Source: a virus (lineage: Duplodnaviria > Heunggongvirae > Uroviricota > Caudoviricetes). Taken from it: a DNA stretch of 50,979 nucleotides. Below the pieces are notes generated by a model. That model had not been told where the DNA came from and made no database searches. It worked only from the letters and a program-made list of their open reading frames with translations. A program made the translations under genes and the position numbers. Shown here one piece after another: positions 21,843 through 45,553 of this stretch. The stretch lies in the IMG/VR virus record IMGVR_UViG_2526164596_000013; one strand, 5' to 3'. Positions within the stretch are counted from its first letter, which is position 1. Every line of letters starts with the position of its first letter.

Positions 21843-23753
21843 TCACTCCTCCGGACAGCTTCGCTGCCAGTTCTTTAAGGGTTGGCCGGGTCGTCTCTTC
21901 TTCCCGGGATTTTGCCAGTACAGCCAGATCAAGCTGCCAGCGTTGCACGGACACACGTAATGCCGCGTAGGCATACACCAGGCAGTCCAGCGCTTCGTTA
22001 CGCCGCTTTTTGTTATCCCACAGCAGACGCATCTTTCCTTTTTCCCACTTCTCCACAAGCTCTTCCGCGACCAGTTGCTGCGCCTCTGTCTGCGAAAAAA
22101 TCTCCGGATCATCAGGAAAACGGATGGCATACGACGTGGCTTCATCCGCAGGCGTGGGCTCGGCTTTCATACGGGCATAGAGAATTTCTTTTGCGGTGTC
22201 CGTCCCCACTTCACACAGATAAACGCCCCGCTGATTGCGGGTTTTCGGCATGGTGATCACCGGCTTGCCATAGACAGACGCGCCTTTTACCGGCAGCACA
22301 CGGAAAACACCGTGTTTTTTGACCTCTGGTAGACGATTTCACCATCGATCCCCCCGGTGTCCCAGCAGACACGGGAAATGGTCATTTCGGTGCCATCCGC
22401 ATGGCGGTATTTTTTGTTGATCGCCGCATCCACACGTAACAGCGTCTCTTCCTCATCGGGACGTCCCATAATGATGATTTTATCCACCAGAAAGGCTTCC
22501 TCTCCCGGAGCCCATCCCCAGACATACATCTCAAAACGGTTTCGCTGCGAGTCAATGCCCGCCGTCAGATAAACCACCCGGGCAGGCACCGCCGCCGTGT
22601 AATGAACAACCTTATCCATCAGTACCTGGTGATCGAGTTTTTCGCCCACGGCCTCTTCCCAGGTCTCGCCCAGCGTGGTGTTCACAAAGGTTTTCAGGCC
22701 GTTGGGATCTTTCAGTGCATCCAGCCAGTCATAGACAATCTGTACCCAGGTGGTGAACGGACTGTACGCCGTCCAGATATGGAATGTGATGGAGCGCGGC
22801 GGCGGAATTTCATTATCCGCGGCGCTGAAAAACGTCAGACCGTCGCGGGTCCACATCCCCGTGTTTTCGCAGATCCACCGCCCGTTGCTCTGGTCAAGCT
22901 CAGACTGATGGATCACGCAGCCATGATGTTCACAGAGGTAGAAAACGCTTTCGGGGCTGTCCTTCTCCCATTTAAGGCCAAAAGGCGTGGACTCATCGCC
23001 AAATTTCAGATACTGCGCCTCCCCACAGTGCGGGCAGGGCACATAAAAACGCATGAAATGCGCCGACTCGTTGGCCGCTTTTTCGATCTGGCAGGAGCCT
23101 TTTATTTTAGGCGTCGAGCCGCGAATGGATTTTGGCCATACCGAGCCCTCAATACGCTTATCCCCCAGCAGGGTTGGCGAGCCCTCTTTTTCGACATCCG
23201 GCTCGAACGAGGAAAGTTCGTCATAGCAGACCACGTCCACGGATTTTTCACGGTAGTTTTTTGCTGCCGCACCACCCAGGCACCAGAAGCCCACCCCCGA
23301 TGAAAAGCGTTTCAGCGTAAGAGTATTGTCACGATGTTTACGACCCAGCCACGGGGAAAGATCTTTCAGGCATGGCACGTCCCGAATCGTCGCCTCCACG
23401 TGAGACTTCATAAAATCTTCAGCGGCAGAATCCGTGGGCTGAAAAAGCAGACTGTTTCGGGATTTATGCTCAATAAAATACCCGGCGACTCCCAGCAACA
23501 TCTTTGTATAGCCAACACGGGCAGATTTAATCAGATTAACAGTGCGGATCTGATCATTCCCCATACTGTTCATGATGGCGATCTGGAACGGCAGCGTTTT
23601 CCATTCGCCGTCACCGTATGAGGATTCTTTCGGCAGATAATAATACTGGTCAGCCCATTCAACTGCCGTCATCGGTACAACCCTGACCAGAGGCTGCAGC
23701 GCAACCGAAACGGCGGCCACCATATTATTCAGTTGTTGCTCTGATATATTCAT
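21826..23753 (-). pseudogene. A: terminase large subunit A, split by a 1-nt shortfall in a homopolymer (T6 at 22315-22320 on plus strand)
   Basis: ORF 22287-23810 matches lambda gpA from MNISEQQ (ATG at 23753) to ...IVYQRSK then goes out of frame; ORF 21826-22299 continues the gpA C-terminus (VKGASVYGKPV...WDNKKRRNEALDCLVYAYAALR); tcaaaaaacacggtg needs one more A to read SKKHGVFRVLPVKG. Confidence 0.8.
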
Positions 23754-24231
23754 CCAGCAAATCCGGTAATTTATCCCCTGCCCGCGCACACTGATTTGCG
23801 CCCTTTGCAATAAGGGTTTTCAGATGGTCAATATGACGTGGCGTTAAATCCGGGAACTGTCGCTGCATGGATAACGGAATGGAATCAAGCGTACTGGACA
23901 ATGCCATCGCCAGTTTGCTGAGGGCGAAAACGCAGAAGTCTGAATCGATGAGCTTACCTTCGGTTACCTGATTTTTAAGTTTTTGAGCTACAGCCTGTTC
24001 TTCTGTCAGTTCAGCTCTGGCCCGAAGCAGCCTTTCCTCCAGTTCTCCCCCGTCATCAGGTGTTCTCTGATTGTGTTGTCGCCGCTCGCGATCTATCTCC
24101 AGTACAGTTTTAACGTCATATAAAACTTCCCTCCCCCGACGTTCAACAGGAGGAACGCCCCATTTATCAAATGCCTGAACAGAGATACCGATGGAGGAGG
24201 CCATATCACTTTTATTCAATAAAAAGGCCAT
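23725..24231 (-). CDS. Nu1: terminase small subunit Nu1
   Basis: product ...MASSIGISVQAFDKWGVPPVERRGREVLYD...FCVFALSKLAMALSSTLDSIPLSMQRQFPDLTPRHIDHLK resembles lambda Nu1; start chosen at ATG 24231 (alternative 24249); 3' end overlaps A start. Confidence 0.75.
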   Translation of the reverse strand: MAFLLNKSDMASSIGISVQAFDKWGVPPVERRGREVLYDVKTVLEIDRERRQHNQRTPDDGGELEERLLRARAELTEEQAVAQKLKNQVTEGKLIDSDFCVFALSKLAMALSSTLDSIPLSMQRQFPDLTPRHIDHLKTLIAKGANQCARAGDKLPDLLDEYIRATTE

Positions 24232-24447
24232 CTCCTCTCCATAAGTCATCGATAAAAAGCGAAACAACAACCATGTGTTTTTGCAAAACCATTTGATATC
24301 ATTGACATTTTTCGCATTGACGACATCAAAACACATCGTAAGGTTGTTGTATTTATTTTATTTTCACCTTACTTATCAATTAGATATACCAAACAATTAA
24401 ACAACAACCACCCCCTCAAAAAATCTCATAAATAGTGAAAACGCGCG

Positions 24448-24459
24448 AGGTCGCCGCCC
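24448..24459 (-). other. cos: cosN cohesive-end site (12-nt GGGCGGCGACCT identical to lambda)
   Basis: rc of 24441-24470 reads GGGGCGGCGACCTCGCGCGTTTTCAC, matching the lambda left-end sequence GGGCGGCGACCTCGCGGGTTTTCGC; lies about 200 bp upstream of Nu1 as cosN/cosB does in lambda. Confidence 0.85.
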
Positions 24460-24665
24460 CGTAACCGGTCGGATCGCCGGAAAGGACCCACGAAATGATA
24501 ATGATTATCATCTATATAAGGTTTATCACAACATGTGTGTACGCCATCAAACCACGAGAAATAATCAATTATGACGCAGGTATCGTATTAATTGATCTGC
24601 GTCAAATTAACGTAAAAGCAACTTCAGATAATACAAATCAGCAACACTGAATATGGGGAAACATT

Positions 24666-24851
24666 ATGTCATCAAAGAACAGAACCCGCAGAACAACAAC
24701 CCGCAACATCCGATTTCCAAACCAGATGATTGAACAAATTAACATCGCTCTTGATCTGAAAGGTTCAGGAAACTTTTCAGCGTGGGTTATTGAAGCCTGC
24801 AGAAGAAGGCTGTCAACAGAGAGTTCGGGTATGAATTACATAATTAAGTAA
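24666..24851 (+). CDS. small ribbon-helix-helix-like protein (hypothetical), moron between Rz and cos
   Basis: 61-aa ORF opposite to the late genes; IRFPNQMIEQINIALDLKGSGNFSAWVIEACRRRL resembles an RHH (Arc/MetJ/CopG-type) fold; weak SD ggggaa. Confidence 0.4.
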   Translation: MSSKNRTRRTTTRNIRFPNQMIEQINIALDLKGSGNFSAWVIEACRRRLSTESSGMNYIIK

Positions 24852-24983
24852 CATGGTGTTCACAGAACACGCAGTTACCGGACACATCAGTTTTCCATTC
24901 GCTCCCCGGCAGTACAGGCTTCCCCTCTGACGGGATAGCCTGAAAAAATAACACAGAAAATTATTTGTTATAATTAATATAAC

Positions 24984-25124
24984 TTACTCAAAAAAAAGCG
25001 ACGAGAAAATCAGCATCAACGAACAATAAGCGCCAATACGTGATAACAAATGGCAGCCATATTTATCTGCAGTATAAGCAATGGACAGGATAACCACACC
25101 AGAAACCGTCAGCATAAAATCCAT
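24984..25124 (-). CDS. hypothetical 46-aa hydrophobic peptide
   Basis: ATG at 25124 preceded by GGGGAAG SD at 7-nt spacing; product MDFMLTVSGVVILSIAYTADKYGCHLLSRIGAYCSLMLIFSSLFFE; below ORF-track size cutoff; no homologue recognised. Confidence 0.3.
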   Translation of the reverse strand: MDFMLTVSGVVILSIAYTADKYGCHLLSRIGAYCSLMLIFSSLFFE

Positions 25125-25474
25125 TTGAACTTCCCCGGACAAAATCGACTCATCTAAAGATTTACAGCTCTTTTTATTATCAATATGTTAAAAGTAAAAT
25201 AAACAGATGTTCAATAACACGAATACAAAAACGTGCTGAAATTCAATGAATCCATTTCTGTGTCATCAATTAATAGTGATAAACATCCGGCTTCTTCCAC
25301 CATCGCACCGGACAGGCGACTATGAGGGGACAACGCCGCGCTCCGTTAACGCGGTAAACCCCGGTGTGTATCGTTTTTGATTATCCCCGCACACTCGCGC
25401 AGAGGAGTCTCCCTGTCGGGCTGCGGTCTCTGTTAATGAGGGAATACAGCGACGATACGGCGCATCAACAAAAC

Positions 25475-25948
25475 TTATTTCAGGCACTGAGTGCGGATAT
25501 AGTCCTGTGCCCCTTCCAGTTGCTTGTGCATCGTCATCAGCCGCTCTCTGAGGGTGAAATAATCCCGTGTAACGGTGTCTGCCAGTTGGGGGCCGGTTGC
25601 ATTATCCACGCCGGAGGTGGTGGGGGCTTCACGCACGGAGCCTGGACAGGTGGCGTTGATCCGCAGGCGCTTACGACCAGCGGCAACATCAGCGCGCAGA
25701 GTTTCATTTTCAGCTCTCGCATCGGATAATTCCCTCGAGTATTTTGCATCGAGCGCAGCAACATCGCGCTGGCGCACCTGCATATCAGTAATGGTTGCGT
25801 TCGCCAGCTTCAGTTCACTGGCTTTGTTATCGCGCTGCGCTTTGTAGGTAATCGCGTTATCACGGTAATGGTCTGTTGCCATCCACAGCGCACCACAGGC
25901 CACCAGCAGAATAACGATAAACGCGGAAAGCATTCGGTTTATGTTCAC
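25475..25948 (-). CDS. Rz: i-spanin Rz
   Basis: 157-aa ORF; [44 protein letters not shown]...[18 protein letters not shown] matches lambda Rz as recalled; N-terminal TM helix. Confidence 0.9.
25537..25722 (-). CDS. Rz1: o-spanin Rz1 (lipoprotein) embedded in Rz in +1 frame
   Basis: [22 protein letters not shown] lipobox followed by [14 protein letters not shown] proline-rich segment as in lambda Rz1; start at 25722 chosen by alignment. Confidence 0.8.
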
Positions 25949-26429: not shown

Positions 26430-26963
26430 TTATCTGTCGATTCCCCAGCACGCCAGCGCGCTCTCCTGGTCACGACGGGATACCTGACCATAACAGTTAT
26501 TTGAGCGGATACGGCAGTCTCTGCCACCGTCCTTAATCCACCAGCGAATCGCCTCACACGCTCCCCTGCGGTCACCAGCATTCAGCCGCTTATAAAACGT
26601 CGACGGGAAACACTTACCGGGGCCAATGTTATAGGGACAGAATGACGCTATACCCGCTTTCTGTGGTTCGGTCAGTGGAACTTTAATATTGCGCTCCACC
26701 CATGCCAGCGCCTTATCCCGTTCAATGGCATTAACCTGGTCGCATTTTTCCTTCGACAGTTTCATGCCCGGAATAACAGGTTTACCATCCACCATTGTGG
26801 CACCGCGGCAGATGGTCCAGATACCCGCACCATCACGGTATGCCGTTGTGTGGTTACCTTCTTTTTCATCCAGAAACTGGTCGAGAATATCAGGCGCAGG
26901 CGCACCGATGGCAATCAACGCCAGAACGGCAGCCGACAGGCCATATTTGATTTTGGTGTTCAT
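26430..26963 (-). CDS. R: SAR endolysin (phage-lysozyme family, phage 21 R-like)
   Basis: 177-aa ORF; N-terminal hydrophobic signal-anchor LSAAVLALIAIGAPAP followed by lysozyme core (EGNHTTAYRDGAGIWTICRGAT...); downstream of a pinholin. Confidence 0.8.
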   Translation of the reverse strand: MNTKIKYGLSAAVLALIAIGAPAPDILDQFLDEKEGNHTTAYRDGAGIWTICRGATMVDGKPVIPGMKLSKEKCDQVNAIERDKALAWVERNIKVPLTEPQKAGIASFCPYNIGPGKCFPSTFYKRLNAGDRRGACEAIRWWIKDGGRDCRIRSNNCYGQVSRRDQESALACWGIDR

Positions 26964-44762: not shown

Positions 44763-45085
44763 TTTTTTGCCCGTCCATATTCAACGGCTTCTTTGAGGAG
44801 TTCATTTTCCATCGTTTTCTTGCCGAGCAGGCGCTGGAGTTCTTTAATCTGCTTCATGGCGGCAACAAGTTCAGAGGCAGGAACAACCTGTTCTCCGGCG
44901 GCGACAGCGGTAAGACTTCCTTCCTGGTATTGCTTACGCCAGAGAAATAACTGGCTGGCTGCTACACCATGTTGCCGGGCAACGAGAGAGACCGTCATCC
45001 CCGGTTCAAAGCTCTGCTGAACAATTGCGATCTTTTCCTGTGTGGTACGCCGTCTGCGTTTCTCCGGCCCTAAGACATCAATCAT
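44720..45085 (-). CDS. insC: IS2 OrfA (HTH transposase subunit)
   Basis: [56 protein letters not shown]... matches IS2 InsC as recalled; overlaps orfB as expected for a -1 frameshift fusion. Confidence 0.85.
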
Positions 45086-45553
45086 CTGTTCTCCAATGAC
45101 TAGTCTAAAAACTAGTATTAAGACTATCACTTATTTAAGTGATACTGGTTGTCTGGAGATTCAGGGGGCCAGTCTAATGGTTGTATGTGACGACATTCAT
45201 CAACGAAGAAGAAGACAAGAACGGCACAATTGATATCTTGAATGAACACGGAACAACTGAACACGCCGTGGTATATAACGGGATGTATGGGTTTATGACG
45301 ATATATCCCGGCCCCATTCGATTTGCCTTACAACAGTATATTGAATGGAATTTAATTCAAAAATACGGCGAAGCTGAAGGAATGGGAAGAGCGCTGTTTC
45401 TTTATCAGAAAATGCTCACTACTTCCCCTGATAAAGGTTTCATTCTTTCAGATATGGGTCGAGAAGGGCTTGAAATCCTTCTGGATGAAATTATTAACGA
45501 AATGAATACTCATGGCATGCAATCCGAAACAGATATTAAGTAAAAGGGACCAC

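What the first reader, a model, noticed from the sequence alone, without database searches (positions are those of the whole stretch)
24480..25130. Moron region between Rz and cos: RHH-like gene, convergent 46-aa hydrophobic ORF and a Fur-box-like palindrome
Where lambda carries bor, this phage has a 61-aa RHH-like protein (plus strand), a 46-aa hydrophobic peptide with a good SD on the other strand, and 38 bp from cosN the sequence TGATAATGATTATCATC (24496-24512), which resembles hexamer repeats of the Fur box (GATAAT GATAAT CATTATC) as I recall it. A small regulator next to a small membrane peptide is reminiscent of toxin/antitoxin or lysogenic-conversion modules. The palindrome could alternatively be part of cosQ.
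Basis: partly seen in the sequence, partly recalled or inferred. Interest (0 to 1): 0.45.

Follow-up and report, generated by a model that had tools for sequence, protein, structure and literature searches.

The report
Known Fur box beside lambda cosQ
The stretch is the ordinary cos-proximal end of a lambda-type E. coli prophage: a Fur (iron repressor) binding site already shown to bind Fur in E. coli K-12 prophages, a conserved small gene of the YlcI/YnfO family that lambda itself carries, and an optional AT-rich insert with an unproven 46-codon reading frame; it is not a toxin-antitoxin pair.

Summary

- **Fur box.** TGATAATGATTATCA (24496-24510) is a perfect 7-1-7 Fur box, 6 bp from cosQ (24483-24489). 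It is the orthologue of the 'nohA'/'nohB' Fur sites of the K-12 Qin and DLP12 prophages. Those sites were gel-shifted and selected in vivo, and Fur ChIP-exo puts a peak at the same place in a CFT073 prophage. Lambda has it too. It sits at a fixed distance from cosQ in lambda-type cos phages of about nine genera, whatever the neighbouring cargo. Several intact phages lack it, so it is not cosQ and not essential.
- **The 61-aa gene.** It is a YlcI/YnfO (DUF3950) gene, 90% identical to an ORF in lambda and under purifying selection. It is only weakly RHH-like.
- **The 46-aa ORF.** It lies in a roughly 460-bp AT-rich insert that replaced the 3' end of ynfO. It occurs without ynfO, and ynfO mostly occurs without it. 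Its length is not beyond chance, and its one diverged copy shows no purifying selection.

What Fur regulates here is unsettled. The most novel open reading is a role of Fur at cos itself.

The parts
23725..24336 (-). Context: terminase small subunit (Nu1-type). PGAP starts it at 24231. The late operon runs on the - strand of the window.
   Evidence: ORF list; RefSeq annotation of the identical prophage
24448..24459 (.). cosN 12-nt cohesive-end sequence, AGGTCGCCGCCC (reverse complement of GGGCGGCGACCT, identical to lambda)
   Evidence: Sequence; alignment with lambda, Qin and DLP12
24483..24489 (-). cosQ, the 7-bp packaging-termination site GGGTCCT (read on the - strand)
   Evidence: Sequence; invariant in alignment A1; defined as a 7-bp conserved site in Feiss et al. 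2015, PMC4669245
24496..24510 (.). Fur box: perfect 7-1-7 inverted repeat TGATAAT-G-ATTATCA, orthologue of the K-12 'nohA' (Qin) and 'nohB' (DLP12) Fur sites
   Evidence: Unique perfect match in the window. Same alignment column as the Qin and DLP12 sites, whose centres equal the coordinates of Chen et al. 2007. CFT073 Fur ChIP-exo peak at the orthologous position. Kept next to cosQ in 108 of 127 viral-contig sites and in about nine genera.
24511..24665 (+). Conserved 155-bp stretch between the Fur box and the ynfO start codon, shared with lambda, Qin and DLP12. It is the presumed promoter/leader of ynfO. The 51-codon ORF called in it (24495-24650, phrog_9395) shows no coding signature.
   Evidence: Alignment A1. 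Variable sites by codon position 10/11/15. No strong sigma-70 match. RNA fold z-score -0.28.
24666..24851 (+). ynfO/ylcI-family gene (DUF3950), 61 aa, transcribed away from cos and against the late operon. The first 52 codons are the conserved family core; the last 9 codons are supplied by the cassette.
   Evidence: PF13132 at 67.5 bits against a cut-off of 25, and NF041551 at 35.2 against 30. 90% identity to the lambda ORF over 52 aa. Variable sites by codon position 8/8/22 in 82 distinct copies. AF2 and Foldseek give weak RHH-like support.
24820..25280 (.). AT-rich (36% G+C) presence/absence cassette of about 460 bp that replaced the 3' end of ynfO. It is absent from the AR_0055 prophage, lambda, Qin and DLP12.
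   Evidence: Alignment A2; composition; remnant of the ylcI 3' end at its right junction
24984..25124 (-). 46-codon hydrophobic ORF (two hydrophobic stretches, residues 3-18 and 29-45) in late-operon orientation. Its coding status is unproven.
   Evidence: ORF list. PGAP hypothetical protein WP_000347013.1. Only 13 protein clusters, all E. coli. Variants. Diverged copy with 5 non-synonymous and 2 synonymous changes. Shuffle test.
24990..24997 (.). A8 tract (T8 on the coding strand) at the 3' end of the 46-codon ORF. Its length varies between copies and changes the C-terminus (FFE*, FF*, FLSKLY*, FFFLSKLY*).
   Evidence: Alignment A2 column 355; protein variants
25279..25465 (.). Context: G+C-rich (57%) conserved segment of unknown function between the cassette and Rz. 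In other prophages it directly follows ylcI/ynfO.
25475..25948 (-). Context: Rz spanin gene with embedded Rz1, the end of the lysis cassette
   Evidence: ORF list; 'lysis protein' in RefSeq

Best explanation
The interval is the normal right-end region of a lambda-type cos prophage, made of separable pieces rather than one module.

**1. The Fur box.** Immediately upstream of cosQ lies a high-affinity operator for the host iron repressor Fur. It is inherited together with cos.
- Shown in relatives: Fe2+-Fur dimers bind it in iron-replete cells.
- Inferred: the most likely consequence is repression of weak prophage-borne transcription that starts at or next to the box. That transcription would run leftward into ynfO and whatever accessory gene sits there, and possibly rightward into the terminase genes. 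These transcripts would then rise when iron is scarce.

**2. ynfO.** It is a genuine, selected small gene of the YlcI/YnfO (DUF3950) family, probably a ribbon-helix-helix-like DNA binder. It is expressed from the strand opposite to the late operon, so presumably in the lysogen. Its target is unknown.

**3. The cassette.** The roughly 460-bp AT-rich cassette is an independent insertion into the 3' end of ynfO. Its 46-codon ORF points in the late-operon direction, so any transcription from pR' reads through it. It may encode a small two-helix membrane protein, or nothing.

The peptide and YnfO are not functional partners.
For: **Identity of the region**
- The window is 100% identical to an E. 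coli O111:H21 prophage.
- cosN, cosQ, the palindrome and the 155 bp up to the ynfO ATG align with lambda, Qin and DLP12.

**Fur binding**
- The Qin site centre (L005 position 3101) is 233 bp before the nohA start. The DLP12 site centre (L006 position 3602) is record position 580601. These equal the 22.3-bit 'nohA' and 25.3-bit 'nohB' sites of Chen et al. 2007.
- The nohA oligonucleotide shifted with 150 nM Fur, and the fragment had been selected in vivo by Vassinova and Kozyrev.
- A ChIP-seq summit at 1634625 in K-12 falls on the same site.
- In CFT073, Fur ChIP-exo peak P53 (1424699-1424711, iron-replete) lies on GTGATAATTATTCTCG, directly upstream of the cosQ of a prophage that has no ynfO. 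Genes of both flanking transcription units rise in the fur deletion strain (log2 +2.33, +2.95 and +2.13).

**Conservation**
- 108 of 127 lambda-type cos sites in viral contigs have a perfect box at a fixed distance from cosQ, and the central base varies freely.
- The box is kept with 0-2 mismatches in Citrobacter, Kluyvera, Kosakonia, Buttiauxella, Klebsiella, Dryocola and phi80. N15 has 3 mismatches. In all of these the upstream cargo is unrelated.

**ynfO**
- Family matches above the curated cut-offs.
- Third-codon-position bias of variable sites, 8/8/22.
- A lambda homologue.

**Independence of the peptide**
-.
Against: - No convincing sigma-70 promoter overlaps the box in a conserved way. 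The only match at the scan threshold is a - strand one that depends on a 7-bp insertion specific to this phage.
- In K-12 the Gao et al. 2023 ChIP-exo tables list no peak at the Qin or DLP12 sites. The fur deletion does not derepress ynfO, ylcI, nohA or nohD: there is no change in MG1655, and ynfO, ydfO, ylcI, ybcV and ybcW decrease in W3110 at very low counts.
- The CFT073 derepression could be indirect, for example prophage induction in a fur mutant.
- In phi80 and N15 the gene next to the box is on the late strand and ends at or inside the box. There is therefore no divergent gene for the box to regulate in those phages.
- ynfO also occurs next to HNH-type packaging modules with no Fur box upstream.
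Confidence: 0.6

Rival explanations
1. The Fur box is an accessory part of cos itself. Host Fur bound 6 bp upstream of cosQ would act on DNA rather than on a promoter. It might slow or position the translocating terminase for the terminal cut. It might protect or organise the chromosome end that is packaged last and so is thought to enter the cell first. Or it might link packaging to iron status, by analogy with host IHF at cosB.
For: - The distance to cosQ is fixed at 5-7 bp.
- The box is retained across about nine genera and in phi80 and N15 although everything further upstream differs, including cases with no divergent gene to regulate.
- The arm nearest cosQ (ATTATC) and the following T-run vary less than the distal arm.
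- In many lineages the block of conservation ends exactly at the left edge of the box.
Against: - At least six distinct prophage contexts with intact Nu1 and A genes lack the box. These include an E. albertii phage with the same Nu1 type as this window. In them similarity breaks exactly at the left edge of cosQ.
- Published genetics define cosQ as 7 bp, and termination as needing cosQ, cosN and I2 only.
- No open-access paper links Fur and cosQ.
- From my own knowledge, no growth defect of lambda on fur mutants has been reported.
Confidence: 0.15
2. The box binds Fur but has no physiological role for the phage. It would be a neutral AT-rich palindrome that hitch-hikes with the strongly selected cosQ-cosN block and happens to titrate Fur.
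For: - It is dispensable in several phages.
- No clear promoter is present.
- There is no Fur-dependent expression change in K-12 MG1655.
- The whole 200 bp around it is about 90% conserved among E. coli phages, so its conservation there does not stand out.
Against: - In other genera the flanks have diverged completely, yet the motif persists with only 0-2 mismatches and Fur-like hexamers. The Klebsiella copy matches 17 of 19 positions of the Fur consensus. Hitch-hiking over 15 bp does not explain this.
- The central N position varies while the arms stay fixed.
- The flanking genes respond to a fur deletion in CFT073.
Confidence: 0.2
3. One reading: YnfO (an RHH regulator/antitoxin) and the 46-aa membrane peptide (a toxin) form a toxin-antitoxin or lysogenic-conversion module controlled by iron through the Fur box.
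For: - The peptide is small and hydrophobic with two helix-length hydrophobic stretches.
- YnfO gives a weak HicB-like hit (E 0.012), and RHH proteins dominate its non-significant fold matches.
- The cassette has a moron-like composition.
Against: - ynfO lacks the peptide in most cos loci that carry it (83 of 97), and in lambda, Qin and DLP12.
- The peptide occurs without ynfO in L238/L239.
- The genes are convergent, not an operon.
- No toxin, antitoxin or defence family is hit.
- No antisense RNA family or promoter was found.
- The ORF shows no purifying selection, and frameshifted copies exist.
- The Fur box also occurs with entirely different cargo.
Confidence: 0.05
4. The 46-codon ORF is not a gene at all. 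It would be a chance open frame on the T-rich strand of an AT-rich non-coding insert.
For: - An ATG-ORF of at least 46 codons occurs in 44% of shuffles.
- The sense strand is 44% T, which by itself yields hydrophobic codons.
- In the only diverged copy there are 5 non-synonymous and 2 synonymous changes, and the ORF (8 changes in 141 nt) is no better conserved than its upstream flank (8 in 206 nt).
- The C-terminus changes with homopolymer length, and frameshifted variants exist.
- No homologue exists outside E. coli and no family matches.
Against: - The frame is kept open in three different genomic contexts. In the diverged copy the stop codon was replaced by another stop at the same position.
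- The Shine-Dalgarno-like GGGGAA is conserved.
- Three of four point variants among near-identical copies are at third codon positions, although this is not significant.
- ORFs this hydrophobic arise in only 1.7% of shuffles.
Confidence: 0.4

Closest known systems
Fur-binding sites 'nohA' (Qin prophage) and 'nohB/nohD' (DLP12 prophage) of E. coli K-12 (Stojiljkovic 1994; Vassinova and Kozyrev 2000; Chen et al. 2007, PMC2189734)
   Same: Orthologous position in an alignable cos region. The 15-mer is identical to the Qin and lambda sites, and DLP12 differs only at the central base. The distance to cosQ and cosN is the same, and the ynfO/ylcI gene lies on the same side.
   Different: The site here sits next to a different cosB/Nu1 specificity type and has a 7-bp insertion just after the box. 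Fur binding has not been tested on this copy. The literature assigned the sites to the Nu1 homologues nohA and nohB, whereas ynfO/ylcI, annotated later, lies 73-78 bp nearer to the box in K-12 and is read away from it.
Lambda cos (cosQ-cosN-cosB) as defined by the Feiss laboratory
   Same: cosN and cosQ are identical to lambda's and have the same spacing. The region is the right chromosome end of a lambda-type cos phage.
   Different: The palindrome lies outside the 7-bp cosQ and is not one of the defined cos subsites. The cosB side here has diverged from lambda.
YlcI/YnfO family (Pfam DUF3950, NCBIfam NF041551; E. coli K-12 ylcI and ynfO)
   Same: Scores are above the curated cut-offs. The 52-residue N-terminal core is about 90% identical to the lambda ORF. 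The location and orientation next to the packaging module are the same.
   Different: The C-terminal tail (STESSGMNYIIK) is supplied by the inserted cassette. The family has no tested function.
Ribbon-helix-helix regulators and antitoxins (Arc, CopG, NikR N-domain, HicB C-domain, ParD, MazE)
   Same: A short basic N-terminus is followed by two helices. The best fold matches are almost all RHH proteins, with TM about 0.55 and rmsd 1.4-2.4 A over about 40 residues. There is a weak HicB-like profile hit.
   Different: No significant sequence or fold match: Foldseek E is about 1 or worse and PDB profile searches are empty. The model confidence is mediocre (pLDDT 67), no strand is predicted in the monomer, and there is no partner toxin.
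Morons of lambdoid phages at the Rz-cos junction (bor/iss, ybcV/ydfO, ybcW)
   Same: The cassette is a presence/absence insertion with a deviating base composition in the classical moron hotspot between the lysis and packaging genes.
   Different: No promoter or terminator of its own was detected. The ORF is co-directional with the late operon, unlike bor, and has no demonstrated product or phenotype.

Membership tests
Fur box (Fe2+-Fur operator) | Match to the 7-1-7 inverted repeat TGATAATNATTATCA and the 19-bp consensus GATAATGATAATCATTATC | tested here: met
   14 of 14 specified bases match. It is the only such site in the window even at 2 mismatches or fewer. It matches 15 of 19 positions of the 19-mer.
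Fur box (Fe2+-Fur operator) | Binding of purified Fur to the DNA | not testable with these tools
   Shown for the orthologous Qin site, which has the identical 15-mer, by gel shift in Chen et al. 2007. Not done on this copy.
Fur box (Fe2+-Fur operator) | Occupancy in vivo | not testable with these tools
   - In relatives: in vivo selection of the nohA fragment.
- Fur ChIP-exo peak at the orthologous site in CFT073.
- ChIP-seq summit on the Qin site.
- No peak listed for the K-12 sites in Gao et al. 2023. Multi-copy mapping may explain this.
Fur box (Fe2+-Fur operator) | Fur- and iron-dependent control of an adjacent promoter | tested here: inconclusive
   No conserved promoter was found. Published RNA data conflict: flanking genes are derepressed in CFT073, while K-12 shows no derepression.
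cosQ (lambda packaging-termination site) | The 7-bp GGGTCCT, 23 bp upstream of cosN | tested here: not met
   The test is for the palindrome. GGGTCCT is a separate element at 24483-24489, and the palindrome starts 6 bp beyond it. Phages with intact terminase genes keep cosQ but lack the palindrome.
YlcI/YnfO family (DUF3950) | Profile score above the curated cut-off | tested here: met
   PF13132 scores 67.5 bits against a cut-off of 25. NF041551 scores 35.2 against 30.
YlcI/YnfO family (DUF3950) | A real protein-coding gene (purifying selection) | tested here: met
   Variable sites by codon position are 8/8/22 (6/4/21 for sites varying in at least 3 copies) among 82 distinct copies. The control ORF in the leader gives 10/11/15.
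Ribbon-helix-helix superfamily | Beta-alpha-alpha fold with a significant sequence or structure match to known RHH proteins | tested here: inconclusive
   - The AF2 model has pLDDT 67 and two helices but no strand.
- Foldseek top hits are RHH proteins, but E is 0.9 or worse.
- The phrog_497 HicB-like hit has E 0.012.
- PDB sequence and profile searches found nothing.
Type II toxin-antitoxin module | Toxin and antitoxin genes adjacent and co-transcribed | tested here: not met
   The genes are convergent with a 132-bp gap.
Type II toxin-antitoxin module | The two genes co-occur across genomes | tested here: not met
   The peptide is present in only 14 of the 97 cos loci that carry ynfO. It is absent from lambda, Qin and DLP12. 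It occurs without ynfO in L238/L239.
Type II toxin-antitoxin module | Match to a known toxin or antitoxin family | tested here: not met
   Pfam, NCBIfam, PHROGs and PADLOC give no toxin hit for the peptide, and only a weak HicB-like hit for YnfO.
Type I toxin-antitoxin module | Small hydrophobic toxin ORF plus an overlapping or adjacent antisense RNA | tested here: inconclusive
   A hydrophobic 46-aa ORF is present. No Rfam family matches, no antisense promoter-terminator pair was found, and the fold is not significant (z -1.7). Toxicity is not testable here.
Moron (independently acquired accessory cassette of a lambdoid phage) | Presence/absence polymorphism between conserved neighbours, with a deviating base composition | tested here: met
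   The cassette at about 24820-25280 is absent in AR_0055, lambda, Qin and DLP12. It is 36% G+C against 51% for the window.
Moron (independently acquired accessory cassette of a lambdoid phage) | Its own promoter and terminator | tested here: inconclusive
   No - strand promoter match was found upstream of the ORF. The only terminator-like site is a weak 6-bp hairpin at 24856-24870.

The most novel reading that the evidence does not exclude
The Fur box is a conserved, position-locked accessory element of lambda-type cos sites. In this reading host Fur, bound 5-7 bp upstream of cosQ, has a direct role at the chromosome end. That role could be in packaging termination, in protecting or circularising the end that is packaged last and so is thought to enter the cell first, or in iron-gating of read-through into the terminase genes. 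Fur would then be a second host DNA-binding factor of cos alongside IHF. The literature has filed the site only as 'the nohA/nohB promoter'. I found no open-access paper that connects it with cosQ.
Probability: 0.15. Interest if true: 0.65.

Novelty: new member of a known kind. Interest (0 to 1): 0.3.

Why it matters
As filed, the finding is mostly bookkeeping:
- The Fur box is an orthologue of sites known since 1994-2007.
- The 'RHH gene' is a ynfO/ylcI family member that lambda itself carries, although it is missing from the reference lambda annotation as I recall it.
- The supposed toxin-antitoxin pair dissolves.

Two points are worth keeping.

First, one of the strongest Fur operators in E. 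coli is physically part of the cos neighbourhood of lambda-type phages in many genera. Its regulatory target has never been settled. It was assigned to the Nu1 homologues before ynfO/ylcI were annotated. A simple box-scramble experiment in lambda would decide between moron regulation, a role at cos, and no role.

Second, prophage copies of this box are numerous, up to 14 homologous regions per E. coli genome. They may therefore matter as a Fur sink, and they complicate ChIP mapping.

Tried and rejected
- **19-bp Fur consensus, up to 3 mismatches.** No hit, because the site has 4 mismatches in the outer hexamer. I replaced it with the 7-1-7 core.
- **Rfam, permissive thresholds, 24200-25600.** Only chance-level hits.
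- **RNA folding.** The leader (z -0.28) and the cassette (z -1.7) are not significant.
- **Terminal repeats of the cassette** as a sign of a transposon or MITE. Only short chance-level repeats were found.
- **A dN/dS-type test on the peptide.** The cassette is nearly invariant in most copies. The single diverged copy gives 5 non-synonymous and 2 synonymous changes, which is too little for statistics.
- **PDB sequence and profile searches with YnfO.** Nothing found.
- **PADLOC.** Nothing for either protein.
- **Fur ChIP-exo peaks at the K-12 Qin and DLP12 sites** in the Gao et al. 2023 tables. None is listed.
- **The original cosQ papers** (PMC1461673, PMC47553). Not held in the library.
- **PICI cos sites** as a natural test of whether the box is needed for packaging. 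Every cos locus I could class by its first downstream ORF has a phage-type small terminase, so no PICI could be identified.
- **The idea that the 187-bp segment is a ybcW remnant.** Rejected: it does not align with lambda or DLP12.
- **The sit-operon Fur boxes of infant-gut lambda phages** (PMC6969025). These concern the sit operon. I did not determine where sit lies relative to cos.
Full report
**Orientation and anatomy**

The window is a lambdoid E. coli prophage drawn in reverse relative to the lambda map. It is 100% identical over 24300-25480 to the chromosome of E. coli O111:H21 strain 15A. The late genes lie on the - strand:
- lysozyme, 26430-26963;
- Rz with embedded Rz1, 25475-25948;
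- terminase small subunit, 23725-24336;
- terminase large subunit, which overlaps it to the left.

Between Rz and the small terminase gene the sequence reads, left to right:
- cosN AGGTCGCCGCCC, 24448-24459;
- cosQ AGGACCC (GGGTCCT on the late strand), 24483-24489;
- the palindrome TGATAATGATTATCA, 24496-24510;
- a 155-bp spacer;
- a 61-codon ORF on the + strand, 24666-24851;
- a 46-codon ORF on the - strand, 24984-25124;
- a G+C-rich segment, 25279-25465.

The palindrome begins 36 bp after cosN, and cosQ is a distinct element 6 bp from it.

**The palindrome is a Fur box, and a known one**

It is a perfect match to the 7-1-7 Fur motif TGATAATNATTATCA. It is the only site in the 51-kb window within two mismatches of that motif, where 0.12 are expected. 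It matches 15 of 19 positions of the classical 19-bp consensus.

Alignment with lambda and with the K-12 cryptic prophages Qin and DLP12 shows cosN, cosQ, the palindrome and the whole stretch up to the start codon of the 61-aa gene to be homologous. The 15-mer is identical in lambda and Qin. In DLP12 it differs only at the central, unspecified base.

The centres of the Qin and DLP12 copies are L005 position 3101 (233 bp before the nohA start) and L006 position 3602 (record position 580601). After the known coordinate offsets between genome versions, they coincide with the 'nohA' site (22.3 bits, position -233) and the 'nohB' site (25.3 bits) in Table 4 of Chen et al. 2007. Those authors gel-shifted the nohA oligonucleotide with 150 nM Fur. 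They also note that the fragment had been selected in vivo for Fur binding by Vassinova and Kozyrev; nohB is credited to the Fur titration assay of Stojiljkovic et al..

Two further data sets bear on occupancy in vivo:
- An FNR ChIP-seq study lists a summit at 1634625, on the Qin palindrome, among ten peaks at sites known to be bound by Fur.
- The Fur pan-regulon study lists a Fur ChIP-exo peak in CFT073 at 1424699-1424711 under iron-replete conditions. In the CFT073 sequence that interval lies on GTGATAATTATTCTCG, directly upstream of the GGGTCCT of a lambdoid prophage.

**The box travels with cos, not with the cargo**

A scan of viral contigs for the lambda-type cosQ-cosN sequence gave 127 sites, counted over all loci held at that point:
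- 108 have a perfect 7-1-7 box at a fixed distance, 21-23 bp before the start of cosQ;
- 14 have one or two mismatches;
- 5 have no box;
- the central base is C, T or A.

A scan of one genome per species found the same arrangement with 0-2 mismatches in Citrobacter, Kluyvera (three species), Kosakonia, Buttiauxella, Klebsiella and Dryocola. The Klebsiella copy, GATAATGATAATTACTATC, matches 17 of 19 positions of the Fur consensus. In all of these the sequence further upstream is unrelated and no ynfO-like gene is present.

Phage phi80 has a perfect box and N15 a degenerate one (CGATAACTATTATCG). In both, the neighbouring gene lies on the late strand and ends at or inside the box.

The box is nevertheless absent from at least six distinct contexts that have intact Nu1- and A-type genes. 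One is an E. albertii prophage with the same Nu1 type as this window. In those cases similarity stops exactly at the left edge of cosQ. Published genetics define cosQ as a 7-bp site. The box is therefore a frequent but dispensable neighbour of cos, not part of cosQ.

**What Fur does there is not settled**

The promoter scan finds no conserved sigma-70 promoter over the box. The single - strand match depends on a 7-bp insertion peculiar to this phage.

Expression data conflict:
- In CFT073, genes of both transcription units flanking the peak rise in the fur deletion strain (log2 +2.33 and +2.95 on one side, +2.13 on the terminase side). This fits repression but could also reflect prophage induction.
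- In K-12 MG1655, ydfO and the Nu1 homologues are silent and unchanged; ynfO and ylcI are not in the part of the table that is held. In W3110, ynfO, ydfO, ylcI, ybcV and ybcW fall in the fur mutant, at very low counts.
- No ChIP-exo peak is listed at either K-12 site. That may be a multi-copy mapping problem.

I rank the readings as follows:
- a Fur-controlled weak promoter region serving the adjacent accessory gene and/or the terminase genes is most likely;
- Fur binding without consequence is second;
- a direct role at cos is third, and is the most novel reading the data allow.

**The 61-aa gene**

It scores 67.5 bits against Pfam DUF3950 (cut-off 25) and 35.2 bits against NCBIfam YlcI_YnfO_N (cut-off 30). 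Lambda encodes a protein that is 90% identical over the first 52 residues, annotated only as hypothetical in one lambda record. K-12 has ynfO and ylcI at the same place.

Among 82 distinct copies, variable sites fall 8/8/22 on codon positions 1/2/3, which is clear purifying selection. The 51-codon ORF that gene callers place in the leader (phrog_9395) gives 10/11/15 and is probably not coding.

The family is small, with 106 clusters at 50% identity. Its members share the N-terminal 52 residues but have many different tails.

An AlphaFold model built on 34 sequences is of mediocre confidence (pLDDT 67) and has two helices. Its best PDB fold matches are almost all ribbon-helix-helix proteins (StnY, NikR, Arc, HicB, ParD, MazE), but with E-values near or above 1. 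A HicB-like PHROG hit has E 0.012. 'RHH-like' is plausible but not demonstrated.

The same gene also sits next to HNH-plus-terminase packaging modules. There the junction is exactly at its ribosome-binding site and no Fur box lies upstream. The gene and the Fur box are therefore separable.

**The 46-codon ORF**

It lies in an AT-rich segment (36% G+C against 51% for the window) at about 24820-25280. That segment is missing from the AR_0055 prophage, lambda, Qin and DLP12. It replaced the 3' end of ynfO and so supplies the last nine codons of the 61-aa protein.

Homologues form 13 clusters, all from E. coli and all at least 84% identical. No family library matches it.

Co-occurrence:
- Of the 97 lambda-cos loci that carry ynfO, 14 also have the ORF.
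- In near-identical copies the ORF is always next to ynfO (78 of 78 viral-contig loci with enough flank, plus this window), simply because the cassette is embedded in that gene.
- The one diverged copy (89% identity, L238/L239) lies downstream of Rz1 and upstream of a third kind of terminase module, with no ynfO.

Evidence on whether it codes for a protein:
- That diverged copy differs by five non-synonymous and two synonymous changes, and by a TAA-to-TGA change of the stop codon at the same position. The ORF is no better conserved than its upstream flank.
- The C-terminus changes with the length of a T8 tract, and frameshifted variants exist.
- An ATG-ORF this long arises in 44% of shuffles of the cassette. 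One this hydrophobic arises in 1.7%, a consequence of a sense strand that is 44% T.

The frame may encode a small two-helix membrane protein, read as part of the late transcript, or it may be nothing. I put the odds near even. Either way it is not the partner of YnfO.

**Verdict**

The Fur-box call was correct, but the site is already in the literature and belongs to the cos neighbourhood of lambda itself. The regulator gene is a ynfO/ylcI family member. The toxin-antitoxin or conversion-module idea is not supported.

The one thing that may be new is the comparative picture: a strong Fur operator locked 5-7 bp from cosQ across many genera, which I did not find discussed in the open-access library. 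I score interest at 0.3. The reading in which Fur acts at cos gets a probability of 0.15 and an interest of 0.65 if true.

Noticed in passing
window 25279-25465: A G+C-rich (57%) segment of about 187 bp between the cassette and Rz is nearly invariant in several prophages. It matches, at least in part, in 4145 of 5426 complete E. coli genomes and on plasmids (about 79% identity). In other prophages it follows ylcI/ynfO directly or lies upstream of iss. It is not present at the equivalent place in lambda, DLP12 or Qin. Its function is unknown.
   Followed up: partly
window 24495-24650 (+): A 51-codon ORF starts at the ATG inside the Fur box. It matches phrog_9395 over its full length, and some gene callers fuse it to ynfO. 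Variable sites show no codon-position bias (10/11/15), so it is probably a spurious call in the conserved ynfO leader.
   Followed up: yes
window 24666-24851 and family alignment A3: YlcI/YnfO proteins share residues 1-52 but carry many unrelated C-terminal tails (lengths 50-107 aa). The break is near codon 52, the same place where the cassette is inserted here. This looks like a recombination hotspot inside the gene.
   Followed up: partly
L206 (phage phi80, record 44960-45190): The phi80 record annotates a 76-aa 'putative Fur-regulated protein' (ORF x171.8) about 900 bp from cos, in addition to the perfect Fur box next to cosQ. The basis of that annotation was not traced.
   Followed up: no
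L010 (E. coli CFT073, record 1422880-1423980): The CFT073 prophage with the Fur ChIP-exo peak at cos carries Iss and a 'TonB family protein' gene between Rz and cos. That is iron-related cargo in the same moron hotspot.
   Followed up: no
L210, L211, L217, L218, L222, L225, L227, L231 and other loci: Assemblies of unrelated organisms contain sequence identical to lambda around cos. They include Oceanobacillus, Neobacillus, Shewanella, Leeuwenhoekiella, Raphidiopsis, Aeromicrobium, Alicyclobacillus and a Pseudomonadales MAG. Several are on low-coverage contigs. This is probably lambda control-DNA contamination in the public genomes.
   Followed up: no
K-12 Qin site, L005 3094-3108: An anti-FNR ChIP-seq study reports a peak summit exactly on the Qin Fur box, together with nine other peaks at sites known to be bound by Fur. 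The authors read this as FNR binding masked by Fur. The palindrome does not fit the FNR spacing (TTGAT-N4-ATCAA), so antibody cross-reaction or co-capture of Fur seems possible.
   Followed up: partly
window 24337-24448: The cosB side and the small terminase gene have diverged strongly from lambda, while the cosN-to-ynfO side is about 90% identical. This is a sharp mosaic boundary at cosN, consistent with a different packaging specificity combined with a shared termination side.
   Followed up: no
supplement of PMC10164565 (W3110 sheet): In W3110 but not in MG1655, ynfO, ydfO, ylcI, ybcV, ybcW and appY are all lower in the fur deletion strain (appY drops from about 1100 to about 60). This is unexplained. 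It suggests a strain- or culture-state effect on the DLP12 and Qin accessory genes.
   Followed up: no
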